A DNA stretch of 64,000 nt from Acidimicrobiales bacterium (GCA_040002995.1 JBDUDK010000075.1:24160-88159), one strand, 5' to 3'. Positions 8,526 through 43,469 are shown, numbered from the stretch's first letter. A program made the numbers and translations. The notes: generated by a model not told the origin, from the sequence alone.

Positions 8526-8562
8526 GTGGCGCCGCTCCTACCAGTGCCGGTGTGTGGCTCCC

Positions 8563-20082: not shown

Positions 20083-20146
20083 TGGGCGCTGCACTTTGGA
20101 CTTCCGTGCCTCTGTATTCGGGTGTGGACACTCGGAGTGCACCGTG

Positions 20147-26857: not shown

Positions 26858-27646
26858 ATGGAAGAGCAGCCCCTGGTCGGTGGCATCGCGAACGTTGGCA
26901 AGGTCGTGCGGGTCGGTCAGCATGTGCTTCGCCCGCCGACCCGGCACACAGCATCCATTCGCGCCTTCCTCCGTGCGCTGGACCGGGCCGGATTCGTAGG
27001 CGCCCCACTCCCGGTCGGCATCGACGACGACGGACGAGAGCGCCTTGCTTTTATCGAGGGTGACGTCCCGCTGACGCCGTATCCCGCTTGGAGCCAGACG
27101 GACACCGCGCTCGCTTCCATCGCCCGACTGCTGCGCCAGATGCACGATGCAGCACACACCTTCGACCACCGAGATCACACCTGGAGTCACGCGCTGTCCG
27201 ACCCGGCCGGTGGGACGATCGTGTGCCACAACGACCTCGAGCCATCCAATATCGCGTTTCGCGACGGCATCGCAGTCGGGTTCATCGACTTTGAGTTCGC
27301 TGCACCCGGCCGGCCTGTCTACGACCTCGCCCAGATGGCCCGGGTCTGCGTGCCGATGGACGGCGAGGTCGACCGGGCGCGGCTCGGCTACCAACCAGCC
27401 GACCTACCAGCGCGGCTGCGGCTCGTGGCTGACGCCTACGGACTGGATCGTGACGGCCGGGCCGAGCTGCTCACGACGATGGATGTTGCCTTCGCGCGCA
27501 TCGAGGCGGCCATCCGGCGCAGCGTCGATGCCGGCAACCCGAACGCCAAGGCGCTGTGGGACCGGACCGAAGGCGGCGAGCGGTTCGACCGGCGGCGTCG
27601 CTGGTGGGCCGCGCATCACGACCAGTTCGTGGCTGCTCTTCGGTAG
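26858..27646 (+). CDS. Aminoglycoside/hydroxyurea-type phosphotransferase (APH) family kinase
   Basis: 262 aa. Catalytic loop CHNDLEPSN and metal-binding IDFEF. Confidence 0.75.
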   Translation: MEEQPLVGGIANVGKVVRVGQHVLRPPTRHTASIRAFLRALDRAGFVGAPLPVGIDDDGRERLAFIEGDVPLTPYPAWSQTDTALASIARLLRQMHDAAHTFDHRDHTWSHALSDPAGGTIVCHNDLEPSNIAFRDGIAVGFIDFEFAAPGRPVYDLAQMARVCVPMDGEVDRARLGYQPADLPARLRLVADAYGLDRDGRAELLTTMDVAFARIEAAIRRSVDAGNPNAKALWDRTEGGERFDRRRRWWAAHHDQFVAALR

Positions 27647-28571: not shown

Positions 28572-29819
28572 TTATTGGGCGGCGTTGGCTGTGCGCCCTT
28601 CGGTGCCTGGCGCGCTGCCGGTGATGGCTGACCCGGTGGCCAGGTCGAAAACCTGCATCTGCTCGACATCCACCGCGAGTTCGAAGGCTTCACCGACGTT
28701 GACTCTCGTGCGGGGATCGCATCGCGCGATGAGGAATGAGGAGGTCGTTCGGGCGAGGTCGCGTTCGGCGGTGGCGTCGAGGTCGGCGGCGATCTCGCGG
28801 AGATCCTCGGTGCGCACGGGTTTGGCGTCGATGGCCGCGTGGACCATGACGTCTGAGCCGAGGGCTTCGACCAGTTCGACGATGACCTTCACGCGTCGGC
28901 GGGGTGACATGTCTGGTCGTATTTGTGCGTCTTGAAGGTGTTCGGGGCGGATGCCGATGGCGATGGTGAGGCCGTCATAGCCGTTTAGCGCGGGTCGACG
29001 GCCGAGCAGCGCTGGAGTTAGTTCGAGAGCGGTGGTTCCGACGAGCACGTGGGGCTCGCCGTTCGTGAGCCGTACGGTCCCCTCGAGGAGGTTCATTGAT
29101 GGTGATCCGATGAAGCCGGCCACGAAGAGATTGACGGGTCGTTCGTAAAGATCGGCCGGGGTGGCGACTTGTTGGAGAACCCCGCGGCGCATGACGGCTA
29201 CACGGTCCCCCATCGTCATGGCCTCGACTTGATCGTGGGTGACGTAGAGGGTGGTGACGCCGAGCCGTCGTTGGATACGCGCGATTTCGGCTCGCATTTG
29301 AACCCGGAGCTTGGCGTCGAGGTTCGAGAGGGGCTCGTCCATGAGAAAGGCGCGCGGTTCTCGCACGATGGCGCGGCCCATGGCGACGCGCTGACGTTGA
29401 CCTCCGGAGAGTTGTTTGGGCTTGCGGTCTAGGAGGTCGGTGAGGTCGAGGACTCGGGCTGCCTCCTCGACTCGCTCGTCGCGTTGGGGCCTTGGCACGT
29501 GTCGGAGGCGTAGGCCGAATCCCATGTTCTGACGCACGCTCATGTGCGGGTAGAGCGCGTAGTTCTGAAAAACCATGGCGATGTCGCGCTTCTTGGCGGG
29601 GATGTCGTTCACGATGTCATCGCCGATCCGCAGAGTGCCGGACGTGACGTCTTCGAGGCCTGCCACCATGCGCAGCGATGTCGTTTTGCCGCAGCCGGAT
29701 GGTCCGACGAGCACCAGAAACTCGCCGTCGCCGAGGGCTAAGTCGAGGTCCTCGACGGCCACAACACCGTTGTCGAAGATCTTGGTGACATGCTCAAACA
29801 GAATTTCGGCCATGGTCAC
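28572..29819 (-). CDS. Sugar ABC transporter ATP-binding protein (MalK/UgpC/MsiK type)
   Basis: 415 aa. GPSGCGKTT, LSGGQRQRVAMGRA and FLMDEPLSNLD, plus the C-terminal regulatory (TOBE-like) domain. Confidence 0.9.
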   Translation of the reverse strand: MTMAEILFEHVTKIFDNGVVAVEDLDLALGDGEFLVLVGPSGCGKTTSLRMVAGLEDVTSGTLRIGDDIVNDIPAKKRDIAMVFQNYALYPHMSVRQNMGFGLRLRHVPRPQRDERVEEAARVLDLTDLLDRKPKQLSGGQRQRVAMGRAIVREPRAFLMDEPLSNLDAKLRVQMRAEIARIQRRLGVTTLYVTHDQVEAMTMGDRVAVMRRGVLQQVATPADLYERPVNLFVAGFIGSPSMNLLEGTVRLTNGEPHVLVGTTALELTPALLGRRPALNGYDGLTIAIGIRPEHLQDAQIRPDMSPRRRVKVIVELVEALGSDVMVHAAIDAKPVRTEDLREIAADLDATAERDLARTTSSFLIARCDPRTRVNVGEAFELAVDVEQMQVFDLATGSAITGSAPGTEGRTANAAQ

Positions 29820-29837
29820 CTCTTCCGGTGGGAGCGT

Positions 29838-30872
29838 TCATTGGATGGTGTGGGTGACCTTGGCGAGCCCTGCGGCAACGTCGGGATTTTGTCCTCGCTG
29901 CTCGGCGAGTGCGGCGGCAATGAGTTGGCCGGCCACCGTTAGAACGATCGGAGCGAGAGGTTCAGGTAGGTCGGGTCCGGTCACCCAACCGTCGGCGAGC
30001 GCCGCGAGGCTTGCGTGGCCGCCGACGGCGGTCACCGCGGCGGAAGCGGCACGAGCCGTGTGGGCGATCGCGGTGAGTCCGTTCAACGTGGGACCCGCGG
30101 CTGGCCCGATCAGCAGGACGCCGACGCCGGGCCGCAGGACGGCCGCAGGTCCGTGCTGCAGCTCGGCTGCGGAGATGGCGTAGCTGGGGATGGCCGCGGC
30201 CTCGACGATTTTCAGCGCCGTTTCTTGAGCGGTCGAAAGGGTGAGGGCGCGGCCGACGGCGAGGATCAGGTCTTGAGCTCCCAGGACGTCCACGACGGGT
30301 CGTATGTTGGCGAAGAGTTGGCGCTCTGCGGCTGCCGGTAGATCGCGCAGGTGCGCCGCCCAGGCTGGGCGGCGCTCCGCGAGGGCGAGCGCGATAAACG
30401 CGAGCGCGACCATGGCAGCGGTGAACGACTTCGTGGCAGGCACGGCACGCTCGACCCCCGTGGGCGTGACCACGGCAAGCCCGCACGCGGCGGCGAGCGA
30501 ACTGTCGGCAGTGTTGGTGAGGGCAATGGTGGCGGCCCCGTGCGACCGCGCCCACAAGGCGCACTCCTCGAGCTCCTCGGACTTGCCCGACTGGGAAATA
30601 AAAATGGCGAGAGTCTGTCCGAGATCGACAGCGGCGCGGAACAGAAACCCGATGGACGGCTCACCAAGACCGACCGGTAGGCCGGCCGTGACCTCGATGA
30701 GGTAGCGGCCGTATACGGCCGCGCCGCGGGAGCTACCTCGCCCGAAGAGCAGTACGTGACGCCGCCCGGCACCGACGCGGGCGATGTCTGGGACCACACC
30801 CTCCATAGCGTCGAGAGTGGCGGCGATGGCGGTGGGTTGTTCGGCGATCTCGAGGCGCATGTGCGAGGTCAT
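29838..30872 (-). CDS. Tandem-SIS-domain protein (GlmS isomerase-domain / AgaS / FrlB-like)
   Basis: EIAEQPTAIAATLD...LLFGRGSS...FISQSGKSEE...ALTN is a first SIS domain, and a second SIS-like half follows. The ATG at 30872 overlaps the upstream stop (ATGA). Confidence 0.75.
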   Translation of the reverse strand: MTSHMRLEIAEQPTAIAATLDAMEGVVPDIARVGAGRRHVLLFGRGSSRGAAVYGRYLIEVTAGLPVGLGEPSIGFLFRAAVDLGQTLAIFISQSGKSEELEECALWARSHGAATIALTNTADSSLAAACGLAVVTPTGVERAVPATKSFTAAMVALAFIALALAERRPAWAAHLRDLPAAAERQLFANIRPVVDVLGAQDLILAVGRALTLSTAQETALKIVEAAAIPSYAISAAELQHGPAAVLRPGVGVLLIGPAAGPTLNGLTAIAHTARAASAAVTAVGGHASLAALADGWVTGPDLPEPLAPIVLTVAGQLIAAALAEQRGQNPDVAAGLAKVTHTIQ

Positions 30873-31939
30873 CGGCGCGTGAGCCACGGCTCAATCGGCA
30901 TGGCTGCCGTGGTGTGGAACGGTAAAGCGACCTCAGCACCGGTTGCGGCTGACTGGTAAGCCGCCATCACGATTTCGAGTACTTGGCGCCCATCGGAACC
31001 GGTCTCCTCCGGGGCGATCGCGCCGGTAATGGCGTCGACGAAGTGTGCCATCTCGCCGTGCCAGCCCCAGGTGCGCGCTTCTTCGTGGGCGATGAAGTTC
31101 CATCCCGCGCGGCCGGGTGCCTTCTCGGCCGCGTCGTTGACGCCGATGTCGCTGTAGACCAGCAGCGATTGGCCGCGGGCAAGGTCAGCGGAGACGGACC
31201 CGGCGGTCCCGAGGACTTCGAGCCGTTCGTCGATCCCGCCGGGTGCGGCCCACGACGAGTCGATCACGGCGAGAGCTCCGGTCTGGAACTGCATGGTCAC
31301 AAGCGCGTGATCGTCGACGTTGCCACTGCTGTGTTTGAAGATCCCGAGGCGGGCGTGCACCGTCGCGACTGGTGGTTTGTCGAGCAACCAGCGGGCCACC
31401 TCGATGCCATGACACCCCATATCCAAAAGGACGCCGCCACCAGATTGTGTCGGGTCGTGGAACCAACGGGCGTGAGGTCCGCCGTGACGCTCCCAGTGCT
31501 GCATCTGAACGACGGTGCCGAGCGTTCCCGACTGGATCAGTTCGCGTACGCGCTGGTAGCGAGGCGCGAAGCACAGCTGCTCGCCATAGAGGAGAAGTAC
31601 CCCAGCGTCGCGGCAGGCGTCGAGCATCGTGTCGGCCTCGGCCAGGTTCATGGCTAAGGGTTTCTCGCAAATCACATGCACGCCGGCGGCCGCCGCCGCC
31701 AGGGTTGCGGGCAGGTGGAATCGGTTGGGAACAGCGATGGTGACAAGGTCGAGGCGTTCGGCAGCGAGCAATGTGTCCAGGTCGGGGTAGGCCGCACAGT
31801 GAAAATCTCTGGCGAACGCCGCACTCGAAGCCGGGCCGGCGGAGACAACGCCCGCGACCTCGACGCGACCGGTGGCGATCAGCGACTCGGCGTGCAGCCT
31901 GCCGGCGAAAGCCGCCCCGATCACGCCTGCGCGCAGCAT
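30869..31939 (-). CDS. Gfo/Idh/MocA-family NAD(P)-dependent oxidoreductase
   Basis: MLRAGVIGAAFAGRLHAE...VICEKPLA is the canonical N-terminal Rossmann/EKP motif. The start at 31939 shares one base with the upstream stop (TGATG). Confidence 0.85.
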   Translation of the reverse strand: MLRAGVIGAAFAGRLHAESLIATGRVEVAGVVSAGPASSAAFARDFHCAAYPDLDTLLAAERLDLVTIAVPNRFHLPATLAAAAAGVHVICEKPLAMNLAEADTMLDACRDAGVLLLYGEQLCFAPRYQRVRELIQSGTLGTVVQMQHWERHGGPHARWFHDPTQSGGGVLLDMGCHGIEVARWLLDKPPVATVHARLGIFKHSSGNVDDHALVTMQFQTGALAVIDSSWAAPGGIDERLEVLGTAGSVSADLARGQSLLVYSDIGVNDAAEKAPGRAGWNFIAHEEARTWGWHGEMAHFVDAITGAIAPEETGSDGRQVLEIVMAAYQSAATGAEVALPFHTTAAMPIEPWLTRR

Positions 31940-32982
31940 CAGCTGATGGCCACTCGTGGAAGCTGGGCCGCAAACCTCCACGCGGCGTCAGCATCGGCAT
32001 CGGTGAGATCACGCACATCGGCGAGGCCGACGTCGAGATCCTCGGCGCGTGCGTAGCCCCGCAGACTGACGAAGATGGGGCCGAAGACGTCGATTCCGAT
32101 GTCGAGGTCGAGCGGGTGGGCTCGGGTCCCGCACCGCCCGACGACGTCGAGGACCCAGCCTGGGTCGTTGTCCTGGGCGTGCGCGACGGCGGCAACGGCG
32201 AAGGCGACGAGTTCGCCGTGGATATGCCGTGCGCCGGTGGCGTGCTCGTAGGCGTAGGCCACGAAGTGCTCACTGCCTTCCTCGAAGCGGCTGTGACCGG
32301 CGGCCGCGCCCGCAGCGCCGACACGGGCGTACGCGTCGGCGAGCCACCGGACGGCGGCGGGCGTGACAGCGCGCACGTCCGCGGCGGCGGCATCGAGTTC
32401 GGCCAGGAGGCTAGCGGCGAGATGGGCGAGGTCGGCGCGCCACGCGGGTCCCTTCCCGACGGCGGCGGCGGCGCGCCAGTCCCACAGCGCGCTGTGGCAC
32501 GACAGGATGTCGCCGATCCCGGCGCGGTTGAGGTGCGGCGGCGCCGACCGGATAAGTCCTATGTCGAGCACCACTATGCGGGGCTCCATGTGCCCGACGT
32601 ATCGCACTCGCCCGTCGACTCGGACGCCGACGGCGTCGGTGAACCCGGCGTCCACCGAGGTGATCGTCGGGATCTGGATCAGTGGTCGGCTGGTGGACCA
32701 CGCCAGGTATTTAGCGGTGTCGAGGGCGGTGCCCCCACCTACGCCCACGACGACCCGCCCGTTGTCCGGCACGGCCGCGAGTGCTTGCAGATGCGCGAGC
32801 TCCATCGATCCAGCAAGTATCAGTTTCGCCGGCAGCCGTGGGAGGCGATCGGCGATCGCGGACCACGGGGGATCGTTGGCGACCACTAGAGCAGGCTCGT
32901 CGAGGTCGCCTAAGACCTCGAGCGCAGCAGCCTCCACGATGGGGAACGGTCGACCGATCACTACCGCCGGTTCGGCGGTCAT
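31939..32982 (-). CDS. Iron-containing alcohol dehydrogenase superfamily, glycerol-1-phosphate-dehydrogenase (AraM/EgsA)-like, copy 1
   Basis: 347 aa. VGVGGGTALDTAKY and RFEEGSEHFVAYAYE...HGELVA. About 40% identical by eye to 39563..40570. Confidence 0.65.
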   Translation of the reverse strand: MTAEPAVVIGRPFPIVEAAALEVLGDLDEPALVVANDPPWSAIADRLPRLPAKLILAGSMELAHLQALAAVPDNGRVVVGVGGGTALDTAKYLAWSTSRPLIQIPTITSVDAGFTDAVGVRVDGRVRYVGHMEPRIVVLDIGLIRSAPPHLNRAGIGDILSCHSALWDWRAAAAVGKGPAWRADLAHLAASLLAELDAAAADVRAVTPAAVRWLADAYARVGAAGAAAGHSRFEEGSEHFVAYAYEHATGARHIHGELVAFAVAAVAHAQDNDPGWVLDVVGRCGTRAHPLDLDIGIDVFGPIFVSLRGYARAEDLDVGLADVRDLTDADADAAWRFAAQLPRVAIS

Positions 32983-34202
32983 GTGCGTAACTCGTGGGCG
33001 TGAGCCTTTACTTTGGCTAGCGCTGCAACCACAGTGTCACAGTCGGCGGCGGTTCCCATGAGGACAGCGGTCTTGAACCAGAGAGTGTCCGACGCCAGCC
33101 GGTCGGTGACGGGACAATCGACGTTGGCATAGTCGGGCATGCCGTCGCGATCTTTGTAGCGGGGAGCGAAGCCGTCTGGGTCGCGGAAGCAGTCGACCCT
33201 GTGGATGGGGGGGTAGGACATGGTCAACGGGATGCCCTCGGCTTCGAGCGCCAGCCGTATTTGTTCGCGCGAAACGCCGAACATCTCGGGATCGATGCGC
33301 ACCACGTAGCAGTAGTTGCCCTGACTTGTGCAACGAGGGTCGCGCGTCTGGGGATGGACTCCAGGGATTTCAGCCAGGGCCGCGTTGAGGTGGTCGGCGT
33401 TGATGGCCCGCCGAGCCTGTTGGGCGGGGAAGCGCTGGAGCTGGGCGAGAAGTACAGCGCCCTGCCACTCCGTCATCCGGTAGTTGCCGCCGAGCGTGTA
33501 ATGCGCATAGAACCATTCGCCGGGTCGACGGCCACAGTCGCTGAAGGACCGGACGGCGACAGCCACCTCGGGGCGAGCCGAAACGACGACTCCGCCTTCA
33601 CCGCCGGTCATTAACTTGGACGCTTGAAAGGAAAAGGCGCCTGCGTCGCCGAGCGTGCCCACGGGGCGATCCCGCCAGGTGGACCCGTGCGCGTGAGCGC
33701 AATCCTCGATGAGGGCCAGGTGGTGGCGGGCACACAACTCGGCGAGCCGGTCCATGTTCGCGGGGTGGCCGGCGACGTGGACGGCGATGATCGCTGCGGT
33801 GCGCGGCCCGATAGCCGCGGCGGCGAGGTCCGCGTCGAGGCATCCGGTGCTTAGTTCCACGTCGACGAGTACGGGGACCGCGTTCACCATGAGCACCGCG
33901 GTTGCGGTGGCGACGAATGACCAGTCGGGCACGATGACTTCGTCGCCTTCGCCCACGCCGAGAGCGAGCAACGCCATCTCGAGGGCGTGCGTGCCGTTGG
34001 TGACGGCAACGCCGGGCGGCGTCCCGAAGGTGTCGCCCCACGCCGTTTCGAAGGCTCGCACCTTGGTACCTTGGCTCGCCCACCACTCGCCACTGTCGAG
34101 CACCTCGAGCAGCAGCTCGCGTTCATTGCCGTCGTGGACCGGCCAAGCCGGAAAGGGCGTGGTTCGTACCGGTACGCCACCGGCGGCGGCCAGCTCAGGC
34201 AT
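32979..34202 (-). CDS. DegT/DnrJ/EryC1/StrS-family PLP-dependent aminotransferase
   Basis: 407 aa. PLP-lysine region AFSFQASKLMTGGEGG, with a typical N-terminus (WP..D..E...L..VL.SG.W). Confidence 0.85.
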   Translation of the reverse strand: MPELAAAGGVPVRTTPFPAWPVHDGNERELLLEVLDSGEWWASQGTKVRAFETAWGDTFGTPPGVAVTNGTHALEMALLALGVGEGDEVIVPDWSFVATATAVLMVNAVPVLVDVELSTGCLDADLAAAAIGPRTAAIIAVHVAGHPANMDRLAELCARHHLALIEDCAHAHGSTWRDRPVGTLGDAGAFSFQASKLMTGGEGGVVVSARPEVAVAVRSFSDCGRRPGEWFYAHYTLGGNYRMTEWQGAVLLAQLQRFPAQQARRAINADHLNAALAEIPGVHPQTRDPRCTSQGNYCYVVRIDPEMFGVSREQIRLALEAEGIPLTMSYPPIHRVDCFRDPDGFAPRYKDRDGMPDYANVDCPVTDRLASDTLWFKTAVLMGTAADCDTVVAALAKVKAHAHELRT

Positions 34203-34229
34203 ATCGATCGCCCAAGGAGTCGGGTCTGG

Positions 34230-35429: not shown

Positions 35430-35433
35430 CCGA

Positions 35434-36273
35434 TCATTCCTTGACCGCTCCCGAGCTGAGACCGCTCACGAGCTGACGCTGGATCAGCACTGTTAGCAAT
35501 GCGATGGGCACGATGGCCAACGAGCTGGCAGCCGCCATGGGCCCCCAGTCGAGCGTCCGGTTCGAGATGAACCCGCTGATGTAGACGGGCAACGTCTCGG
35601 CGTTGTTGCCCGCAAGGATCACCGGAAGAAGGAACTCGTTCCAATTCAATAGCGCAACGAAGATCATCGTGGCCGCTATTCCCGGCAAGGCGAGCGGGGC
35701 GATCACGAAGACAAACAGATGGAACCTGCCCGCGCCGTCGGTTCGCGCGCATTCCTCGACCTCGATAGGGATCTGCTCCAGAAACGATGTCATGAGCCAA
35801 ATCGAAAACGGCAGGTTGACCGTGGCGTAGATCACCACCATCGTCGGGCGCGAGTCGTAGAGACCAAACCGGGTGACGAGCTGATAGATGGGCACGATGA
35901 GCACGATGCCCGGCATGGCCCGGACCAGCACGAGAGTGGCTTCGAGAGGACGGCGTCCGTGGAACCGACGATGGCGGGCGAGGGCGTATGCGGCTACACC
36001 GCCGACCACGACACACAGCACCGTGGATGCCAAGGTGATAACGACGGTGTTGACGTAGACGCGTAGGAACTGGGGCCTGCCGAACAGGTCTCGATAGTTC
36101 TTCCAGGTGGCGGCGAAGTTGAAGAATTTAGGCGGGTTCGCGTAAGAGTCGACGCGGTCCTTCACGCTCGTTGACACGGTCCAGAACAAGGGGAACAACG
36201 CGGTCAGGGCGGCGATGATGAGCACGGCGTAAGCGGCTACGCGCCCTGCCCGGCTCCCGCGGGCGGCGCTCAC
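35434..36273 (-). CDS. Carbohydrate ABC transporter permease (CUT1, MalG-like)
   Basis: The track ORF (404 aa) is trimmed to the GTG at 36273, which overlaps the upstream stop (GTGA). The product has six-TM topology and an EAA-like loop (ECARTDGAGRFHLF). Confidence 0.85.
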   Translation of the reverse strand: MSAARGSRAGRVAAYAVLIIAALTALFPLFWTVSTSVKDRVDSYANPPKFFNFAATWKNYRDLFGRPQFLRVYVNTVVITLASTVLCVVVGGVAAYALARHRRFHGRRPLEATLVLVRAMPGIVLIVPIYQLVTRFGLYDSRPTMVVIYATVNLPFSIWLMTSFLEQIPIEVEECARTDGAGRFHLFVFVIAPLALPGIAATMIFVALLNWNEFLLPVILAGNNAETLPVYISGFISNRTLDWGPMAAASSLAIVPIALLTVLIQRQLVSGLSSGAVKE

Positions 36274-37232
36274 TTGTTGGCTCGTACAGCGCGGGTCCAC
36301 AGCAGGTAGACGGGAATCGTGAATACGGCGAGCACCACGCCGATGGCTGCCGCCCGGGAGATCTGCAAGAAGTTGAACCCGGTGTTGTAGTCGAGCAACC
36401 CCACCGTTTGCGTCGCGGTGCCCGGGCCACCGCGGGTGAGAATGAAGATGATGTCGAACAGTTTGGCCGCGTCGATGACACGGATCATCAAGATCACATA
36501 GAGCACGGGACGCAGCATCGGAAAGGTGACGAACCAGAACGTCTGCCATGCCGACCCGCCGTCGACGCGGGCCGCTTCCATCGGACTCTCGGGGAGCCCG
36601 GCCAGACCGGCGAGAGTTAGGAGCATGACGAAGGGAATGGCCTGCCACGAGTCGACAAGGACGATGGCTACTACAGCGCTGTGTTGGTCGCCGAGCCAGT
36701 CGACGTGGCCTAGACCCACGGTCTGCAGAAGCCAGTTCATGACGCCGAGGTCCGAATCAAGCATGAACCGCCACATGATTCCCACCGCGACCGGTGTGAG
36801 CAGCATCGGGATCAGCAGCGCCGAGCGGAAGAATCGGGTGCCGCGCAGGTTGCGGTGCAGCAAGAGAGCGAGACCGATTCCGGCCGGCAGTTGGATGGCG
36901 AGGCCCATCAACGCGATGACGGCCGTGGTCTTGACCGCATCGTAGAAGGTGCTGGTAAAGACATCGCGACGGAAGTTGCTAAAGCCCACAAAGCGTCCAC
37001 GGGCGAACGAGCCGATCGCCTCGTTGCGAAAGGAGAGGTAGACGCCCACGGCGATGGGCACCGCGAACAACGTCAGGAGCAGGACCCAAGCGGGGAGGGT
37101 GAGGACGGCGGCGCCAAGTCGACGCCGCCGAGCCGACCATCCCGGTCGCCTGGAGCGGGTGGCACGCTCGGGCCGCCCGGCCGGGATGGCAGCACTGCCC
37201 GGTTCAGGCAGGGTCCCGGCCGGAGCGGTCAT
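36270..37232 (-). CDS. Carbohydrate ABC transporter permease (CUT1, MalF-like)
   Basis: 320 aa with EAA loop MEAARVDGGSAWQTFWFVTFP. The start shares one base with the SBP stop (TGATG). Confidence 0.85.
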   Translation of the reverse strand: MTAPAGTLPEPGSAAIPAGRPERATRSRRPGWSARRRRLGAAVLTLPAWVLLLTLFAVPIAVGVYLSFRNEAIGSFARGRFVGFSNFRRDVFTSTFYDAVKTTAVIALMGLAIQLPAGIGLALLLHRNLRGTRFFRSALLIPMLLTPVAVGIMWRFMLDSDLGVMNWLLQTVGLGHVDWLGDQHSAVVAIVLVDSWQAIPFVMLLTLAGLAGLPESPMEAARVDGGSAWQTFWFVTFPMLRPVLYVILMIRVIDAAKLFDIIFILTRGGPGTATQTVGLLDYNTGFNFLQISRAAAIGVVLAVFTIPVYLLWTRAVRANK

Positions 37233-38566
37233 CAGCCTTTTTCGCCGGCCAGGATCGGCCCGAGCGCCTTCTCAAGGCCGTCGAGCCCCGACTTCACGTC
37301 GGACTTCCCAGTGAAGATGTTGGTGATGGTGTCCTGGATGGCCTTGTCCATTTCCGGCCACACCTTCAGTTGCGGGTAGCGCTCGATCCGGCTCGTGGAA
37401 GGAATGTTCAACAGTTTGAGATAGGGCTCCTTAGCCACAAGATCCGCGTTGGACGTAATCGACTCACGCCCGATAGCCGCGGCCCCCGCATTGAGGAAGT
37501 TGATGGCATTGGCCTTGCCGAGAACGAACTCGAGAAACTTCCACGCTGCGTCCTTGTTCTTGGAGTCGGCCGGGATGCCGATATTCCAGCCGGCGAGGTG
37601 GGTGATGTCGGCGGTGCCCATCGGCATCTTCGCCGTGCCGATCTTGCCGACGTACTTGTTCGTCTTGGGGTCCTGCATAAACCCGTAGTACCCCGAGTAC
37701 TGGATCATGGCGCCGATGTCCTGGGAGATGAACTTGCCGGTCACCCCATCGCCGTCGACACTCAGCGCGCCCTCGGGGGCGAGAGGAAGCAGACTCTTCA
37801 TGTACTCGGTGGCTTTGACGGCCTCGGGGGTATTGACCGTCGGCTGCAAATTGTCGTCGTAGAGCTTGCCGCCGAAGCTCCACACCAGGGTCATCCACCA
37901 CCACGTGGCCGCCGGGCCGAAGTCAATGAGCGCGCCATCACCCTTACCTGCCGCCTTGACCTTCTCCGCGTTCGATTTGAACTCGTCCCATGTTGTCGCC
38001 GGCTTGAGACCGAGCGCATCGTAGATATCTGTGCGGTACCACTGGATCATCGGCTCCGTCGACAACGTGAGTCCGAGGGTTGACCCGCCGTACTTGCCGT
38101 AGTCCTGTTGACCCTGAGAAAAGTCGGCAATGTCATAAGCACTGCTCTTCGCCAAATAGTCGTCGAGAGGGGTCATCACCTTGGCGGCGCCGAAGGCAGC
38201 TAGGAACGTGTTGTCGAACTGGGCCACGTCGTACGCGCCCTTCTTTTGTTGATAGCTCAGCAGCTCCTTCTGGTGCGCTTCGCCGTAGGGCGTCTCGGTG
38301 AAGTTCACCTTTATTCCGGTCTGCTTCGTGAACTCGGGAATGAACGACTGGATCGCCGTGCTCGAAGGACTAGGGATGAGAAAAACATTGATCTCACCGC
38401 TGGGCGGCGCCGTGGAGCCGACGCCAGCGACAGACGTGTTGGAGCCGGCGACAGTCGTGCCACTCGAACTTTTCGAACTGCTGCCGCAAGCGGCGGCCAC
38501 CACGCTCACCGCAAGAATCACGCTTGCCGCCACGAGCCGACGGCGTCGCCCAGATGTCGCTCCCAT
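37232..38566 (-). CDS. Extracellular solute-binding lipoprotein (family 1, sugar type)
   Basis: Lipobox VVAAACGSSS. The ATG at 38566 is preceded by GGGAGG; the track ORF starts 4 codons earlier at a TTG. Confidence 0.85.
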   Translation of the reverse strand: MGATSGRRRRLVAASVILAVSVVAAACGSSSKSSSGTTVAGSNTSVAGVGSTAPPSGEINVFLIPSPSSTAIQSFIPEFTKQTGIKVNFTETPYGEAHQKELLSYQQKKGAYDVAQFDNTFLAAFGAAKVMTPLDDYLAKSSAYDIADFSQGQQDYGKYGGSTLGLTLSTEPMIQWYRTDIYDALGLKPATTWDEFKSNAEKVKAAGKGDGALIDFGPAATWWWMTLVWSFGGKLYDDNLQPTVNTPEAVKATEYMKSLLPLAPEGALSVDGDGVTGKFISQDIGAMIQYSGYYGFMQDPKTNKYVGKIGTAKMPMGTADITHLAGWNIGIPADSKNKDAAWKFLEFVLGKANAINFLNAGAAAIGRESITSNADLVAKEPYLKLLNIPSTSRIERYPQLKVWPEMDKAIQDTITNIFTGKSDVKSGLDGLEKALGPILAGEKG

Positions 38567-38705
38567 AGTGCCTCCCAATCTCCGGGCGGCCTGCCCCCGC
38601 AGGATCCACCACCCCTATTCGCAGGGACATAACAAGTACAAGCGGATCCCAACGAATAAGTCAATAGTATTTACCGAATAGCACGCAGAGGGTTATCGTG
38701 CCCCG
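38567..38705. promoter_or_regulatory. Divergent control region of the sugar-type locus (GC-poor, repeat-bearing)
   Basis: 139 bp between divergent starts and visibly AT-richer than its surroundings. GGATCC occurs at 38602..38607 and 38644..38649. TATTCG (38616..38621) is inverted against CGAATA (38653..38658), and a third CGAATA lies at 38675..38680. Confidence 0.4.
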
Positions 38706-39566
38706 ATGGCTCACGTCCGCGACATCGAGCCCGGTGCCCAACGAGTAGTGCTCATCGTGGTCGCTCACGCCGACGATCCCACGCTCTTCGTTGGTGGAAC
38801 CATCGCCCGGTGGGCCGACGCTGGGTGGCGGGTCGTCGTGGTGCGGGCGACCGATGACCGGTGGGACTCCGTCGGGCTGTCGGAAACTGAGACGATCGAA
38901 CGCAGCGCGCTCGAGTTGCAACAAGCCGCCCACGTGCTGCGCATCCACCGCATCGTCGATCTGGGCATGGCCACCGACTCACTCGGCGACGCGAGCGAAG
39001 TCGCCCTGCGCGAGCAGATCATCAGGGAGATCCGACGGTGGAAGCCGTACGCCTTGGTCACGTTTGACCCGTACGCCATGTACGGCGAAGACAATCAGGA
39101 CCATGTCCTTGTTGCAGCAGCAACCGACGAAGCGTTCTGGACTAGCCAGTTTGACAAACATCACCCCGAGCAAACCGCCCAGGGCCTCGCGCCGCACGGC
39201 TGCTTCGAACGGTGGTATTTCGGACGCCGCGTTATCGACGTCACCGACGTCGTCGATACCACCGACACCTTGGAACGCAAAGTGGACGCGGCTTTGTGTC
39301 ACGACGCCGCGCTGCGAAACCTCGTCCACCAGCTTCGCCTACAAGCCCACACCGGAGGCTGGCAAATCCCCGCACTGGACACCGCCCTCGATGGCGACCT
39401 CCGCCCCGTCGTCGAGCCCCTCATCCGAGGCGCCGCCCAACGCACCGGAGCCCGATATGGACTCAACGCTGCCGAAGAGTTCCGAATCGTACGCTTCGGT
39501 GGACTCGCGGACTTCCTCACGGAGCACGGACAGCCCCTCGACCGCTTCCCCGATTCGCCCACATGA
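38706..39566 (+). CDS. PIG-L/LmbE-family N-acetylglucosaminyl deacetylase
   Basis: 286 aa. VVAHADDPTLFVGGT (AHxDD zinc motif) and a downstream DNQDH. Confidence 0.8.
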   Translation: MAHVRDIEPGAQRVVLIVVAHADDPTLFVGGTIARWADAGWRVVVVRATDDRWDSVGLSETETIERSALELQQAAHVLRIHRIVDLGMATDSLGDASEVALREQIIREIRRWKPYALVTFDPYAMYGEDNQDHVLVAAATDEAFWTSQFDKHHPEQTAQGLAPHGCFERWYFGRRVIDVTDVVDTTDTLERKVDAALCHDAALRNLVHQLRLQAHTGGWQIPALDTALDGDLRPVVEPLIRGAAQRTGARYGLNAAEEFRIVRFGGLADFLTEHGQPLDRFPDSPT

Positions 39567-40570
39567 TCGACGCGAATGGCTTCCCCACGGTCTACGGCCG
39601 CGGCCTGCTCGCTGCGCTCGTCGCCGACGTCGACCGCTATGTAGTGGTCACTCAACCCGAACCGTGGGCGGTCATGCAGCCGACCCTCGACCACCCTCCC
39701 GCCGCCGTGATCCAAGCCGGTGACCTGCGGCCCGCACACCTCGATGACCTGGCCAGCAACCTGCCCGACGTCGATCTGATCGTCGGCGTCGGCGGCGGCT
39801 CCGCAATGGACACCGCCAAGTGGGTGCACTGGCGACGCCAGCTCCCGCTGGTCCAAGTGCCGAGCCTGCCTTCGGTCAACGCCTGCTTCACTCGCATGAC
39901 CGCGCTCCGCATCGCTGGCGGCGTGCGTTACGAAGGCGATGCGATACCCGAACAAGTGCTCGTCGACTTCGACCTCATGTCCGCCGCCCCACCCTCCCTT
40001 GTCCGGGGGGGAATCGGCGACGTGCTCTCCTGCCACACCGCTCGCTTCGACTGGCACCTCGCCGTCAACAACAACTACGAGCCTGCCTGGGACGAGGAGG
40101 CCGCCACCATGTCGCTCCGCTATCTCGACGAGCTCGAGTCCCTCGCACCATCGCTTGCTGCCGGAACCGACGACGGTATCCGCGCGCTGATGGAACTTCA
40201 CCGCGACATTGGGTGGCGTTGCCATGAGCTCGGCCACGCCCGCTTCGAAGAAGGAAGCGAACACTTCTTCGCCTACGCCTTCGAGGAAGTCACCGGCCGC
40301 ACCATCATGCACGGAGAGCTCGTCACCGTCGGCGTGCTGATCATGAGCACCCTCCAAGGCAACCGACCTGAACGGCCGCGCTCTATCGCCGACCGAGTAG
40401 CCATGCGCACCGACCTCAACCAACTTGGAATCTCCTGGGACGAAATCGCCACCGCACTGCGCCGACTTCCCTCCTTCGTCACCGAACAACAGCTCTGGTA
40501 CTCGATCATCGACGAACTCGTCATCGACGAGCGCGCGCTAGCCGCTGCCCGTGCCGCCCTGGACCAATGA
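39563..40570 (+). CDS. Iron-containing alcohol dehydrogenase superfamily, glycerol-1-phosphate-dehydrogenase-like, copy 2
   Basis: The ATG at 39563 overlaps the PIG-L stop (ATGA). VGVGGGSAMDTAKW and RFEEGSEHFFAYAFE...HGELV. The N-terminal 117 codons of the track ORF are an Arg-rich out-of-context extension and were dropped. Confidence 0.65.
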   Translation: MIDANGFPTVYGRGLLAALVADVDRYVVVTQPEPWAVMQPTLDHPPAAVIQAGDLRPAHLDDLASNLPDVDLIVGVGGGSAMDTAKWVHWRRQLPLVQVPSLPSVNACFTRMTALRIAGGVRYEGDAIPEQVLVDFDLMSAAPPSLVRGGIGDVLSCHTARFDWHLAVNNNYEPAWDEEAATMSLRYLDELESLAPSLAAGTDDGIRALMELHRDIGWRCHELGHARFEEGSEHFFAYAFEEVTGRTIMHGELVTVGVLIMSTLQGNRPERPRSIADRVAMRTDLNQLGISWDEIATALRRLPSFVTEQQLWYSIIDELVIDERALAAARAALDQ

Positions 40571-43134: not shown

Positions 43135-43269
43135 CGTCTACGCCCACGGCCCCGGCTGCACACTCGCATCATCCGGCGGATAGCCAGCCAACCACCACGA
43201 GGCACCCGCGTTTCAAACATAGCCGCACCCACGAACTTAGAAGAGACACACCACCGCGGTCCCCCAGCG

Positions 43270-43410: not shown

Positions 43411-43469
43411 CTACGATACGAAGCGTGTACGACCCACCCAGAACGGCGCGCGGAGATCCTTCTTCAGGA
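43411..43469. repeat. attR candidate (functional 3' end of the acyl-CoA synthetase gene)
   Basis: See attL. The 34-bp perfect core lies at 43436..43469. Confidence 0.7.

What the first reader, a model, noticed from the sequence alone, without database searches (positions are those of the whole stretch)
28572..40570. Island cargo: tightly coupled importer plus deacetylase / dehydrogenase / aminotransferase / SIS locus that fits no pathway I can name
Gene content. Nine minus-strand genes run in order: SBP, two CUT1 permeases, ROK regulator, DegT-family aminotransferase, G1PDH-like Fe-ADH, Gfo/Idh/MocA oxidoreductase, tandem-SIS protein and MsiK-like ATPase. A divergent pair encodes a PIG-L deacetylase and a second G1PDH-like paralogue.

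Coupling. Five of the gene junctions are start/stop overlaps. ATGA occurs at 39563, 32979 and 30869. GTGA occurs at 36270. TGATG occurs at 37232 and 31939.

Known parallels:
- Gfo/Idh/MocA + DegT pairs perform sugar keto-oxidation then transamination in NtdC/NtdA (kanosamine), WbpB/WbpE and GnnA/GnnB.
- An inositol dehydrogenase plus a StsC-type aminotransferase interconverts inositol and scyllo-inosamine.
- PIG-L enzymes deacetylate GlcNAc-inositol (MshB) or N-acetylparomamine (BtrD/NeoL).
- SIS-only GlmS-like proteins (AgaS, FrlB) deaminate or deglycate amino-sugar phosphates.

Interpretation. Combined with an importer and a ROK repressor, the set argues for uptake and conversion of an N-acetylated amino-sugar or aminocyclitol-type compound rather than NDP-sugar biosynthesis. 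I recognised no glycosyltransferase, nucleotidyltransferase or glycoside hydrolase. The duplicated G1PDH-like enzymes have no obvious role in any of the cited pathways. An APH-family kinase lies 0.9 kb beyond the ATPase gene (26858..27646).
Basis: partly seen in the sequence, partly recalled or inferred. Interest (0 to 1): 0.75.

Follow-up and report, generated by a model that had tools for sequence, protein, structure and literature searches.

The report
Island-borne amino-sugar uptake and breakdown locus
This is a real, co-regulated 11-gene sugar-uptake operon pair carried on a mobile island, and its importer + deacetylase + glycerol-phosphate-dehydrogenase-like core recurs in abundant freshwater and soil bacteria but matches no characterised amino-sugar pathway.

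Summary
All 11 genes, their families and six start/stop overlaps (not five) are present at 28572-40570.

New findings:
- The locus is cargo of a ~23.5 kb island with an integrase and a 34-nt perfect direct repeat.
- A conserved palindromic operator (38653-38681) lies between the divergent operons and occurs only in loci that encode the ROK regulator.
- Anchoring on the G1PDH-like enzyme gave relatives in 303 species-level genomes; anchoring on the SBP gave 146 metagenome relatives. Both show one invariant core: CUT1 importer + PIG-L deacetylase + a distinct Fe-ADH_2 clade.
- This core occurs in Ilumatobacteraceae, Nanopelagicaceae and proteobacterial-type contigs.

Interchangeable parts:
- GlcN-6-P deaminase of either fold (SIS here, NagB-I type in sister loci).
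- A BadF-type kinase in some lineages.
- A PLP enzyme plus dehydrogenase pair: DegT+Gfo here, DgaE-family lyase + glucose-1-dehydrogenase-like SDR elsewhere.

Best reading: deacetylation-first catabolism of an N-acetylhexosamine-type compound. One exit is phosphorylative and deaminating; the other is oxidative or transaminating, probably via a hexosaminate.

The substrate and the Fe-ADH_2 reaction remain unresolved, and no characterised pathway matches. I rate it a new variant of a known kind, of moderate-to-high interest.

The parts
28572..29819 (-). ABC transporter ATPase (MalK/UgpC/MsiK type); probable ATG start at 29813
   Evidence: Pfam ABC_tran, OB_MalK and TOBE_2. NCBIfam UgpC subfamily, 460.9 bits against a cutoff of 432. 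Follows Fe-ADH_2 in sister loci.
29838..30872 (-). Double-SIS protein, GlmS-isomerase/NagB-II-like; predicted amino-sugar-6-phosphate deaminase/isomerase
   Evidence: NCBIfam hits: GlmS 153.6 bits and NagB_SO3506 146.6 bits, both below cutoff. PDB 8eol (NagB-II) 2e-27. The SQSGKS phosphate loop, ELQHGP and C-terminal LAK are conserved. Replaced by a NagB-I-type protein in type B loci.
30869..31939 (-). Gfo/Idh/MocA NAD-dependent sugar/cyclitol dehydrogenase
   Evidence: Three Gfo Pfam domains. Full-length match to PDB 6nor (2.7e-48) and 6jw6 (9e-38). IolG model 173 bits and UDP-GlcNAc 3-dehydrogenase model 144 bits, both below cutoff. Always accompanies DegT in related loci.
31939..32982 (-). 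Fe-ADH_2 paralogue 1 (FeADH1): G1PDH/GldA-fold, metal/NAD-type dehydrogenase of a distinct clade
   Evidence: Pfam Fe-ADH_2, 9.9e-14. G1PDH model 98.7 bits against a cutoff of 413. AlphaFold pLDDT 91.6. Foldseek top hits are G1PDH 5fb3/4rgq, 3ce9, AraM and GldA at TM 0.70-0.76, with no DHQS/DOIS in the top 50. Relatives in 303 species genomes.
32979..34202 (-). DegT/DnrJ/EryC1-family PLP aminotransferase (catalytic Lys in the SFQASK motif)
   Evidence: Pfam, 1.9e-97. Best solved relatives are L-Gln:2-deoxy-scyllo-inosose aminotransferases 5w71 and 2c7t (about 1e-71) and AHBA synthase. No NCBIfam equivalog reached.
34230..35429 (-). ROK-family transcriptional regulator with an N-terminal winged helix; atypical (no CxCGxxGC zinc motif, EIGF instead of ExGH)
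   Evidence: Pfam ROK 1.5e-50 plus HTH_24/MarR_2. Motif check. Its presence correlates with the operator.
35434..36273 (-). CUT1 ABC permease 2 (MalG/GlcU-like)
   Evidence: BPD_transp_1. NCBIfam GlcU and MalG hits. 53-72% identical orthologues in all architecture groups.
36270..37232 (-). CUT1 ABC permease 1 (MalF/UgpA-like)
   Evidence: BPD_transp_1. UgpA and GlcT hits.
37232..38578 (-). Lipoprotein solute-binding protein (lipobox AAAC at residues 28-31)
   Evidence: SBP_bac_1, 1.6e-43. Closest solved relative is 5iai (ribitol-bound), 6e-32 by sequence and TM 0.74-0.82 by fold. 61-78% identical orthologues occur in Acidimicrobiia, low-GC freshwater loci assigned to Nanopelagicaceae via their Fe-ADH_2, proteobacterial-type contigs and Mesorhizobium neociceri.
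38653..38681 (.). Palindromic operator in the divergent promoter region; consensus ATTCGGTCAAC-N(3-5)-GTTGACCGAAT; presumed ROK binding site
   Evidence: Conserved in all 9 divergent PIG-L<>SBP intergenic regions examined. Single occurrence in the window. The exact core is found in 15 of 28 ROK loci and 0 of 53 loci without ROK. In metagenome loci it lies upstream of the SBP gene.
38706..39566 (+). PIG-L/LmbE (CE14) family zinc de-N-acetylase
   Evidence: Pfam PIG-L, 1.3e-18. BshB1 model 61 bits, below cutoff. Best solved relatives are archaeal diacetylchitobiose deacetylases 3wl4 and 8bgn (2-3e-9). AHADD motif present. Linked to Fe-ADH_2 in 50 of 54 loci.
39563..40570 (+). Fe-ADH_2 paralogue 2 (FeADH2), translationally coupled to PIG-L; orthologue of the single Fe-ADH_2 in the low-GC freshwater (Nanopelagicaceae-like) loci
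   Evidence: Pfam Fe-ADH_2, 2.5e-10. G1PDH model 109.8 bits against a cutoff of 413. 58-60% identical to the PIG-L-coupled Fe-ADH_2 of the low-GC freshwater loci.
19976..20009 (.). Left copy of the 34-nt perfect direct repeat bounding the island (att-like core)
   Evidence: the repeat finder D2/D3 and pairwise alignment; similarity stops abruptly after the core.
20096..21604 (+). Tyrosine recombinase (island integrase)
   Evidence: Pfam Phage_integrase, 7.7e-12.
43436..43469 (.). Right copy of the 34-nt repeat, inside the 3' end of the acyl-CoA synthetase gene 43411-44973 (-)

Best explanation
What it is. The locus is a ROK-repressed catabolic locus for an imported N-acetylhexosamine-type compound, carried on a ~23.5 kb integrative island. 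It belongs to a widespread, uncharacterised family of loci. The invariant core of that family is a CUT1 ABC importer, a PIG-L (CE14) de-N-acetylase and a distinct clade of G1PDH/GldA-fold NAD/metal enzymes (Fe-ADH_2).

Proposed mechanism. The gene anatomy and regulation site are shown; the chemistry is inferred.
1. ROK binds the palindrome at 38653-38681 and is released by an unknown inducer.
2. The lipoprotein SBP, two permeases and the MsiK-like ATPase import the substrate.
3. PIG-L removes the N-acetyl group. FeADH2, translationally coupled to PIG-L, carries out an obligatory NAD-dependent step on that product. This step could be oxidoreduction, epimerisation or NAD-assisted cleavage; it is unresolved.
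4. The resulting hexosamine has two exits.
   a. An unlinked kinase phosphorylates it, and the SIS protein then deaminates or isomerises it to fructose-6-P.
   b. Gfo, DegT and FeADH1 provide a non-phosphorylative route (amine -> ketone -> alcohol). This most probably runs by C1 oxidation to a 2-amino-2-deoxy-aldonate (glucosaminate type), transamination to the 2-keto acid, and reduction.

Candidate substrates: GlcNAc or chitobiose, or an oxidised, epimeric or reduced derivative such as the chitin-oxidation products GlcNAc1A or chitobionic acid.
For: - Anatomy, overlaps and intact catalytic motifs.
- Regulation: the operator is conserved in 9 of 9 divergent promoters and is restricted to ROK-containing loci, 15 of 28 against 0 of 53.
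- Core, anchored on Fe-ADH_2: of 54 loci of at least 12 kb, 50 have PIG-L, 44 DegT and 40 Gfo.
- Core, anchored independently on the SBP: of 19 loci with enough flank, 19 have Fe-ADH_2, 16 PIG-L and 10 SIS or NagB.
- Hexosamine-6-P step: the SIS protein keeps the GlmS/NagB-II phosphate loop and catalytic residues. In type B loci a NagB-I-type protein occupies that role (NagB subfamily model 224 bits, 6-phosphogluconolactonase model 44 bits). In the low-GC freshwater (Nanopelagicaceae-like) loci a NagB-II (217 bits) is overlapped by a BadF-type NagK-like kinase.
- Oxidative or transaminating exit: in proteobacterial-type loci the slot after the permeases holds a DgaE-family ammonia-lyase (TIGR01437 248 bits; glucosaminate-6-P lyase model 222 bits) plus a glucose-1-dehydrogenase-like SDR (194.5 bits against a cutoff of 215), sometimes with an SGL lactonase. 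Another lineage has a fold-III D-Ser-dehydratase-like PLP enzyme, an SDR and a lactonase. Mesorhizobium has a DAO-type FAD oxidoreductase. These are different ways of removing an alpha-amino-acid-type amine.
- OngC, the characterised glucosaminate deaminase, is a fold-III PLP enzyme (PMC9537276).
- Pairs of an Fe-ADH-fold enzyme and an aminotransferase that interconvert alcohol, carbonyl and amine are known: KdnB/KdnA appear among the hits.
- The best solved relatives of PIG-L are diacetylchitobiose deacetylases.
Against: - No kinase and no glycoside hydrolase is encoded in the window locus or recurs in the high-GC loci.
- The reaction of the invariant Fe-ADH_2 enzymes is not explained by any step of known hexosamine pathways.
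- The closest solved relatives of DegT act on cyclitols. I recall, without verifying, that those of Gfo are aminoglycoside 3''-dehydrogenases.
- PIG-L resembles Dac only weakly (2e-9).
- The SBP's nearest relatives bind ribitol, sorbitol, disaccharides or SQ-glycerol, not chitobiose, so ligand size and class are open.
- Salmonella DgaE acts on the 6-phosphate.
- Equivalence by operon position is an inference, not a demonstration.
Confidence: 0.45

Rival explanations
1. Catabolism or salvage of an aminocyclitol or aminoglycoside fragment, such as an inosamine, 2-deoxystreptamine, or an N-acetylated aminoglycoside or paromamine-like pseudodisaccharide. PIG-L would remove the acetyl group. DegT with Gfo and Fe-ADH_2 would convert ring amines to ketones and then alcohols.
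For: - DegT is closest to L-Gln:2-deoxy-scyllo-inosose aminotransferases (about 1e-71).
- Gfo is closest to 6nor and 6jw6, which I recall to be GenD2 and KanD2 (not verified), and to the IolG model.
- The PIG-L family includes BtrD-type enzymes (established knowledge).
- The SBP is nearest to a polyol-binding SBP.
- An APH-like ORF lies on the same island.
Against: - A GlcN-6-P deaminase of either fold is recruited recurrently, along with a NagK-like kinase. This points to a hexosamine, not a cyclitol.
- DegT+Gfo are replaced by a DgaE-family lyase plus a glucose-1-dehydrogenase-like SDR.
- The low-GC freshwater (Nanopelagicaceae-like) loci lack any transaminase yet keep importer, PIG-L and Fe-ADH_2.
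- The APH ORF is not conserved with the locus.
- No iol genes were found nearby.
- The very wide distribution in oligotrophic freshwater bacteria fits an abundant substrate better.
Confidence: 0.12
2. Uptake of a GlcNAc-aglycone glycoside, for example GlcNAc-inositol or mycothiol fragments, or GlcNAc-glycerol or GlcNAc-ribitol from teichoic acids. PIG-L would deacetylate the sugar. The G1PDH/GldA-like enzymes would oxidise the polyol aglycone, or cleave the glucosaminide by an NAD-assisted oxidation-elimination cycle. The released GlcN would go to the deaminase.
For: - All characterised PIG-L substrates are GlcNAc linked to an aglycone, or chitobiose (established knowledge; PDB hits).
- Fe-ADH_2 has the fold and metal ligands of polyol and polyol-phosphate dehydrogenases.
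- The SBP resembles polyol and glycosyl-glycerol binders.
- There is no glycosidase in the locus, so a non-hydrolytic cleavage is attractive.
- PIG-L and FeADH2 are translationally coupled.
- The DHQS superfamily is known for oxidation-elimination-reduction cycles with bound NAD (established knowledge).
Against: - The role of DegT, DgaE and DAO enzymes is not explained.
- There is no precedent for glycoside cleavage by this fold.
- The low-GC freshwater loci carry a GH1 next to the transporter.
- This is purely inferential.
Confidence: 0.15
3. Catabolism of a diamino sugar such as 2-acetamido-3-amino-2,3-dideoxyglucose (GlcNAc3N type). DegT+Gfo would convert the C3 amine to a hydroxyl, PIG-L would free the C2 amine, and the SIS deaminase would finish after phosphorylation.
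For: - Gfo scores on the UDP-GlcNAc 3-dehydrogenase model (144 bits) and on 6nor/6jw6, recalled to be sugar C3 dehydrogenases.
- I recall PIG-L + Gfo + DegT trios from pactamycin biosynthesis (PtmG/N/A).
- It explains why both a transaminase and a C2 deaminase are present.
Against: - It gives no role to the invariant Fe-ADH_2 enzymes.
- It does not explain the DgaE, fold-III or DAO replacements, which are enzymes of alpha-amino acids.
- The substrate is rare compared with the locus distribution.
Confidence: 0.1
4. A biosynthetic cluster for an aminocyclitol or amino-sugar natural product, or for a cell-envelope component.
For: - Gene families are shared with aminoglycoside clusters.
- A minimal version (PIG-L<>DegT-FeADH1, Gfo), without a transporter, sits in a conserved housekeeping context in Ilumatobacteraceae.
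Against: - The locus has an importer with a lipoprotein SBP, a repressor/operator architecture and catabolic deaminases.
- No glycosyltransferase, nucleotidyltransferase, cyclase or exporter is present or recurs.
- Fe-ADH_2 is not DHQS/DOIS-like.
Confidence: 0.03

Closest known systems
Archaeal (Thermococcus/Pyrococcus) deacetylation-first chitin pathway: Dac (PIG-L/CE14), GlmA, GlcN kinase, GlmD (SIS)
   Same: A PIG-L-family deacetylase acts before phosphorylation, and a SIS-type GlcN-6-P deaminase finishes. The best solved relatives of PIG-L are Dac enzymes. An ABC importer is used.
   Different: There is no GlmA-type glucosaminidase and no ADP-dependent kinase. The GlmD model scores only 40 bits against a cutoff of 580. 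The locus adds two Fe-ADH_2 enzymes, DegT and Gfo, which have no counterpart.
Shewanella/Xanthomonas NagK-NagA-NagB-II route for GlcNAc
   Same: A NagB-II-like SIS deaminase is present (146.6 bits here; 217 bits with an adjacent NagK_SO3507-like kinase in the low-GC freshwater loci).
   Different: NagA (amidohydrolase) is absent and PIG-L takes its place. There is no kinase in the window. Redox and PLP enzymes are added.
ong pathway for the chitin-oxidation product GlcNAc1A (Pseudoalteromonas; PMC9537276, PMC12017989)
   Same: The logic is the same: deacetylate, then remove the alpha-amine of a 2-amino-aldonate without prior phosphorylation. A related locus (L090) that shares the importer and Fe-ADH_2 carries a fold-III PLP enzyme of the OngC type, and also an Amidohydro_1/3-domain protein whose NCBIfam hits are not D-aminoacylase-like.
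   Different: The window has none of OngB, OngC, OngD, KdgK, OngR or the SSS transporter. It uses PIG-L, DegT, a ROK regulator and an ABC importer. The ong pathway is known only in Gammaproteobacteria.
Salmonella D-glucosaminate (Dga) pathway, DgaE ammonia-lyase
   Same: DgaE-family enzymes occupy, in sister loci, the operon slot that DegT occupies here.
   Different: The window has no DgaE, PTS or DgaF. The function of DegT on a hexosaminate is inferred, not shown.
Fe-ADH-fold oxidoreductase plus aminotransferase pairs: KdnB/KdnA for Kdo8N; daptide MpaB/MpaC type
   Same: Adjacent, coupled genes convert alcohol <-> carbonyl <-> amine. KdnA and KdnB appear among the hits, and the daptide dehydrogenase model gives 1.5e-6.
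   Different: Those systems are biosynthetic and act on Kdo or on peptides. Here the setting is catabolic and the Fe-ADH_2 clade is different.
sn-Glycerol-1-phosphate dehydrogenase (EgsA/AraM) and glycerol dehydrogenase GldA
   Same: Same fold (TM 0.70-0.76). The GGG NAD motif and the Asp/His/His metal ligands are conserved, as is the shared GDxxS...DW/GSEH/HGE signature.
   Different: Identity is only 17-24%. The G1PDH model scores 99-110 bits against a cutoff of 413. There is an invariant SCH motif after the metal-binding Asp. The genomic context is amino-sugar catabolism, not lipid synthesis.
2-Deoxystreptamine/aminoglycoside enzymes (BtrS/BtrR, BtrD, GenD2/GenS2, KanD2/KanS2)
   Same: These are the closest solved homologues of DegT. 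I recall, without verifying, that they are also the closest for Gfo. A PIG-L deacetylase is present.
   Different: There is no DOI synthase (Fe-ADH_2 is not DHQS-like) and no glycosyltransferase. The locus has an importer, a repressor and deaminases.

Membership tests
CUT1 carbohydrate ABC importer | An SBP_bac_1 binding protein, two BPD_transp_1 permeases and a MalK/MsiK-type ATPase with a C-terminal OB/TOBE domain | tested here: met
   lipobox found
ROK repressor-controlled operon | ROK domain with an N-terminal winged helix, plus a cognate palindromic operator in the promoter | tested here: met
   wHTH+ROK. Conserved palindrome restricted to ROK loci. Binding itself not testable here.
Canonical NagK/PTS-NagA-NagB GlcNAc pathway | NagA amidohydrolase acting on GlcNAc-6-P | tested here: not met
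   No Amidohydro_1 protein in the locus; PIG-L is present instead.
Canonical NagK/PTS-NagA-NagB GlcNAc pathway | GlcN-6-P deaminase (NagB-I or NagB-II) | tested here: inconclusive
   The SIS protein scores 146.6 bits on NagB_SO3506 against a cutoff of 430, but the catalytic residues are conserved.
Canonical NagK/PTS-NagA-NagB GlcNAc pathway | Linked sugar kinase or PTS | tested here: not met
   None in the window. The APH-like ORF is not conserved. The second ROK in L029 is also an HTH regulator.
Archaeal Dac-GlmA-GlmD chitin pathway | Dac-type PIG-L deacetylase | tested here: inconclusive
   Best PDB hits are Dac enzymes, but only at 2e-9.
Archaeal Dac-GlmA-GlmD chitin pathway | Exo-beta-D-glucosaminidase (GlmA) | tested here: not met
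   No glycoside hydrolase in the window or recurrent in the high-GC loci.
ong (GlcNAc1A) pathway | OngB D-aminoacylase-fold deacetylase, OngC fold-III PLP deaminase, KdgK and an RpiR regulator | tested here: not met
   None of these families is in the window. Pathway definition taken from PMC9537276.
Dga (D-glucosaminate) pathway | DgaE-family PLP ammonia-lyase | tested here: not met
   Absent from the window. Present at the equivalent position in L092-type loci.
2-Deoxystreptamine/aminoglycoside biosynthesis | Sugar-phosphate cyclase (DOI synthase, DHQS-like) | tested here: not met
   aroB model only 3.5e-5. Foldseek top 50 contains G1PDH, GldA and Fe-ADH structures but no DHQS or DOIS.
2-Deoxystreptamine/aminoglycoside biosynthesis | Glycosyltransferase | tested here: not met
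   None in the window or in related loci.
sn-Glycerol-1-phosphate dehydrogenase (equivalog) | Score above the curated G1PDH cutoff | tested here: not met
   98.7 and 109.8 bits against a cutoff of 413.
sn-Glycerol-1-phosphate dehydrogenase (equivalog) | Fold, NAD motif and Asp/His/His metal site | tested here: met
sn-Glycerol-1-phosphate dehydrogenase (equivalog) | DHAP/G1P phosphate pocket | not tested
Kanosamine NtdABC pathway | NtdA-type aminotransferase plus NtdB phosphatase | tested here: not met
   NtdA scores only 5e-24, far below the DOI aminotransferases. No HAD phosphatase in the locus.
Integrative genomic island | Tyrosine recombinase at one end and flanking direct repeats, one inside the target gene's 3' end | tested here: met
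   No tRNA target.

The most novel reading that the evidence does not exclude
The Fe-ADH_2 clade found here is a new class of NAD/metal enzymes that is an obligate partner of CE14 (PIG-L) deacetylases. Together with a dedicated ABC importer, the pair defines an undescribed hexosamine pathway that deacetylates first and is partly non-phosphorylative (oxidative or transaminative, via a hexosaminate). This pathway would be used by the dominant freshwater Actinobacteria (Nanopelagicaceae/acI, Ilumatobacteraceae/acIV) and by soil bacteria, possibly as their route for chitin-derived products, including LPMO-oxidised ones. The Fe-ADH_2 step itself would be novel chemistry, such as epimerisation or NAD-assisted cleavage of a glucosaminide.
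Probability: 0.35. Interest if true: 0.72.

Novelty: new variant of a known kind. Interest (0 to 1): 0.62.

Why it matters
Amino sugars from chitin and peptidoglycan are a major carbon and nitrogen pool in lakes and soils. Nanopelagicaceae (acI) and Ilumatobacteraceae (acIV), which I know as prominent freshwater consumers of such compounds, both carry this core.

Their genomes hold a conserved importer + PIG-L + G1PDH-like core that no characterised pathway explains. Relatives occur in 303 species-level genomes, and some protein clusters have hundreds of metagenomic members.

Working out the substrate and the Fe-ADH_2 reaction would do three things:
- assign function to a large 'iron-containing alcohol dehydrogenase / glycerol-1-phosphate dehydrogenase' annotation class;
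- possibly reveal a second, non-gammaproteobacterial route for oxidised chitin products or a non-phosphorylative hexosamine route;
- supply a defined regulator/operator pair.

The modular swapping seen here is also a clean natural experiment in non-orthologous displacement: SIS with NagB-I, and DegT+Gfo with DgaE+SDR, a fold-III PLP enzyme or a DAO-type oxidoreductase.

Tried and rejected
- De novo ORF clustering of neighbours. Shadow ORFs in high-GC DNA merged the families. I replaced it with panel tblastn and masked-region clustering.
- tblastn of FeADH1 against 72,556 plasmids found no match.
- Ten full-text literature searches found no characterised equivalent. The ong papers were the only relevant lead.
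- I tried to read the G1PDH phosphate-pocket residues from the literature so as to test for a phosphorylated substrate. The paper was not held and the review was uninformative.
- SBP structure prediction plus Foldseek returned only generic CUT1 neighbours with heterogeneous ligands. It does not discriminate the ligand.
- APH ORF as the missing kinase: rejected. It is not conserved, matches the profile only partially and has no PDB relative.
- Second ROK in L029 as a kinase: rejected, because it also carries an HTH.
- Fe-ADH_2 as a DOI-synthase-like cyclase: rejected on fold and profile.
- Rhizopine (moc) catabolism: no MocC/D/E/F-type genes.
- Neutral-ceramidase, amidase-signature and beta-lactamase-family neighbours of the minimal module were noted but are absent from the window.

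Full report
**Observation**

- Pfam and NCBIfam identify nine genes on the minus strand. In transcription order these are: a lipoprotein SBP_bac_1 binding protein, two BPD_transp_1 permeases, a winged-helix ROK regulator, a DegT aminotransferase, an Fe-ADH_2 protein, a Gfo/Idh/MocA dehydrogenase, a double-SIS protein and a MalK/UgpC-type ATPase.
- On the plus strand lie a PIG-L deacetylase and a second Fe-ADH_2 protein. The two Fe-ADH_2 paralogues are 37% identical.
- All listed overlaps are present. There are six, not five.
- Catalytic and cofactor motifs are intact in every enzyme, so nothing looks like a pseudogene.
- The source is an Acidimicrobiales MAG whose PGAP names are generic.

**Island**

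- A tyrosine recombinase gene lies at 20096-21604.
- A ~200-nt colinear repeat ends in a perfect 34-nt core. The copies are at 19976-20009 and 43436-43469.
- The right copy lies in the 3' end of an acyl-CoA synthetase gene.
- The ~23.5 kb between the repeats holds the integrase, a STAND/AAA_16 regulator, an APH-like ORF, the locus and some unknown ORFs.
- A sister locus (L029) also abuts an integrase. 'Island cargo' is therefore supported.

**Regulation**

- The nine divergent PIG-L<>SBP intergenic regions that I could extract all carry a palindrome, ATTCGGTCAAC-N(3-5)-GTTGACCGAAT. The window copy is at 38653-38681.
- The exact core occurs in 15 of 28 loci that encode the ROK protein and in none of 53 loci that lack it.
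- In unidirectional operons the palindrome precedes PIG-L, DegT or the SBP gene.
- This makes the two divergent transcription units one regulon. ROK binding itself is inferred.
- The ROK protein is atypical: it lacks the zinc-binding cysteine motif.

**Enzymes**

- Fe-ADH_2 proteins:
  - They score 99-110 bits on the G1PDH model against a cutoff of 413.
  - A confident model (pLDDT 91.6) superposes best on G1PDH, AraM, 3ce9 and GldA at TM 0.70-0.76.
  - No dehydroquinate or DOI synthase appears among the top 50 hits.
  - The NAD motif and the Asp/His/His metal ligands are conserved.
  - They are therefore a separate clade of polyol-dehydrogenase-fold enzymes, not cyclases.
- DegT is closest to L-Gln:2-deoxy-scyllo-inosose aminotransferases and to AHBA synthase (about 1e-70).
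- Gfo aligns end to end with 6nor and 6jw6. I recall these as GenD2 and KanD2 but could not verify it.
- The SIS protein retains the GlmS/NagB-II phosphate loop and catalytic Glu, His and Lys.
- The nearest solved relatives of PIG-L are archaeal diacetylchitobiose deacetylases, though only weakly (2e-9).
- The nearest solved relative of the SBP is the ribitol-bound 5iai. The wider structural neighbourhood is heterogeneous.

**Comparative genomics anchored on Fe-ADH_2**

- A profile scan of species-representative genomes found 303 relatives. The 80 best are almost all Ilumatobacteraceae or Acidimicrobiia MAGs.
- Among 54 loci of at least 12 kb, 50 have PIG-L, 44 DegT, 40 Gfo, 17 ROK and about 15 the importer.
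- Architectures:
  - the window type;
  - a one-strand variant;
  - 'type B', in which a NagB-I-type deaminase sits between FeADH2 and DegT (NagB subfamily model 224 bits against 44 bits for the 6-phosphogluconolactonase model);
  - a minimal PIG-L<>DegT-FeADH1 (+Gfo) module without a transporter, in a conserved housekeeping context.
- Swapping a SIS-type for a NagB-type deaminase is classic non-orthologous displacement. It argues that a hexosamine-6-phosphate is formed.

**Comparative genomics anchored on the SBP**

- SBP orthologues of 61-78% identity reach far beyond Acidimicrobiia. Contexts come and from a panel search of 80 metagenome loci.
- Group II (proteobacterial type): FeADH-ATPase<>SBP-perm-perm-DgaE-family lyase-SDR-(lactonase)-FeADH-GntR-PIG-L-SIS.
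  - The lyase scores 248 bits on TIGR01437 and 222 bits on the glucosaminate-6-P lyase model.
  - The SDR is glucose-1-dehydrogenase-like.
  - The SIS protein is NagB-II-like.
- Group III (GC 0.40-0.47; its Fe-ADH_2 has a 67%-identical homologue annotated Ca. Nanopelagicaceae): PIG-L-FeADH<>SBP-perm-perm, with an adjacent NagB-II (217 bits) overlapped by a NagK-like BadF kinase.
- Group IV: SIS-FeADH-PIG-L-FeADH<>SBP-perm-perm-(ROK)-DegT-Gfo.
- One high-GC lineage (L090) pairs the importer and two Fe-ADH_2 genes with an SDR, an SGL lactonase, a large Amidohydro_1/3-domain protein and a fold-III D-Ser-dehydratase-like PLP enzyme.
- Mesorhizobium neociceri pairs the importer with a DAO-type FAD oxidoreductase, a BadF kinase, a SIS protein and RpiR regulators.
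- In 19 SBP-anchored loci with adequate flanks, Fe-ADH_2 is present in 19, PIG-L in 16 and SIS or NagB in 10.
- The PIG-L-coupled FeADH2 is the orthologue (58-60%) of the single group III enzyme. FeADH1 is a separate paralogue that travels with the PLP + dehydrogenase pair.

**Interpretation**

Two modules emerge.
- Module A is invariant: importer + PIG-L + FeADH2-type enzyme, usually with a GlcN-6-P deaminase and sometimes a kinase.
  - It resembles the archaeal deacetylation-first GlcNAc/chitobiose route.
  - It adds one unexplained, obligatory NAD-dependent step.
- Module B is optional: a PLP or FAD amine-removing enzyme + a dehydrogenase + an FeADH1-type enzyme, with or without a lactonase.
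  - The slot is filled by DegT+Gfo, by DgaE+SDR, by a fold-III PLP enzyme + SDR + lactonase, or by DAO.
  - Three of those four enzyme types are known to act on alpha-amino acids. The characterised glucosaminate enzymes are of exactly these kinds: OngC is fold III and DgaE is named by NCBIfam.
  - I therefore infer that module B oxidises the hexosamine at C1 and removes the C2 amine from the resulting 2-amino-aldonate. Here that removal would be by transamination, followed by ketoreduction.
- This is inference from positional equivalence. None of it has been shown biochemically.

**What remains open**

- The identity of the imported compound. Candidates are GlcNAc or chitobiose, an epimer such as GalNAc, or oxidised chitin products such as GlcNAc1A or chitobionic acid.
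- The reaction of the Fe-ADH_2 enzymes.
- The source of the kinase in the window organism.
- How a glycosidic bond would be cleaved if the substrate is a disaccharide.

The aminocyclitol reading keeps some support from the closest solved homologues of DegT and Gfo. It is weakened by the recurrent recruitment of hexosamine-6-P deaminases, NagK-like kinases and glucosaminate-type lyases. It is also weakened by Nanopelagicaceae-like loci that lack any transaminase.

**Comparison with known systems**

- The locus fails the defining features of every pathway tested: canonical Nag, archaeal Dac-GlmA-GlmD, ong, Dga, 2-deoxystreptamine, kanosamine and moc (see membership tests).
- It works partly like the archaeal and NagB-II routes, and plausibly like the glucosaminate routes.
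- The ong pathway is so far described only in Gammaproteobacteria.
- I rate the locus a new variant of a known kind: a sugar catabolic operon with an ABC importer and a ROK repressor, but with a novel enzyme complement and an uncharacterised, widely distributed enzyme clade at its core.

Noticed in passing
window 19810-20009 and 43269-43469; integrase 20096-21604: A ~23.5 kb integrative island is bounded by a 34-nt perfect direct repeat within a ~200-nt degenerate repeat. The right copy lies in the 3' end of an AMP-binding acyl-CoA synthetase gene. No tRNA gene is present in the window.
   Followed up: yes
window 41189-41325: A tandem array with a 24-nt period (two 12-nt subunits), 5.6 copies at 83% match, lies in the island's unannotated right arm. 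ORFs between 41.2 and 43.1 kb have no Pfam hits.
   Followed up: partly
window 26858-27646: The APH-like ORF matches only the C-terminal catalytic part of the APH profile. Its weak NCBIfam hits are to GntI and homoserine kinase II, and it has no PDB relative. It is not linked to the locus in any other genome and is probably separate island cargo.
   Followed up: yes
window 23106-26393: A 1095-aa STAND-type (AAA_16) regulator-like protein lies on the island between the integrase and the locus. Its function is unknown.
   Followed up: no
window 34230-35429: The ROK regulator lacks the canonical CxCGxxGC zinc motif and has EIGF instead of ExGH. Its sugar-sensing site may therefore differ from that of NagC/Mlc-type ROK proteins.
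   Followed up: partly
L003/L087, L023, L024, L026, L045, L046, L064, L072, L076, L077, L080; L050-L073 type D loci; L083: Extra amide hydrolases recur next to the PIG-L/Fe-ADH_2 module in loci without the importer. These are a neutral-ceramidase-family protein (PF04734, 4.7e-13), an amidase-signature enzyme (2e-90) and a beta-lactamase-family protein. They hint that related modules handle other N-acyl groups. All are absent from the window.
   Followed up: partly
L029 11773-13116: A second importer-type locus is also adjacent to a tyrosine recombinase, which suggests repeated mobilisation of this gene set.
   Followed up: no
L023, L024, L026, L045, L046, L064, L079: Some MAGs carrying the module are labelled Phenylobacterium, Alphaproteobacteria, Gammaproteobacteria or even Bifidobacterium breve. 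This could be genuine horizontal transfer or mis-binning; I did not resolve it.
   Followed up: no
L094-L096 and about 25 low-GC metagenome loci: In the low-GC freshwater (Nanopelagicaceae-like) loci the transporter is flanked by a bona fide GH1 beta-glucosidase (642 bits, above cutoff) with a GNAT acetyltransferase. A GntR/UTRA-SIS_2-GH84-ABC unit also lies alongside. Together these form a larger GlcNAc-glycan utilisation region.
   Followed up: partly
window 14314-19128: A 1604-aa ORF with MG4 macroglobulin and Big_1 Ig-like domains, presumably a surface protein, lies just left of the island.
   Followed up: no
window 5138-9897: A branched-chain-amino-acid-type ABC system is present: Peripla_BP_6, a long ORF with two BPD_transp_2 stretches plus an ABC_tran domain, and a second ATPase. 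The 893-aa ORF 5844-8525 may be a fusion or two genes read through by the ORF lister.
   Followed up: no
window 36001-40000: GC content dips to 0.63 over the transporter and PIG-L part of the locus, against 0.65-0.71 elsewhere.
   Followed up: no
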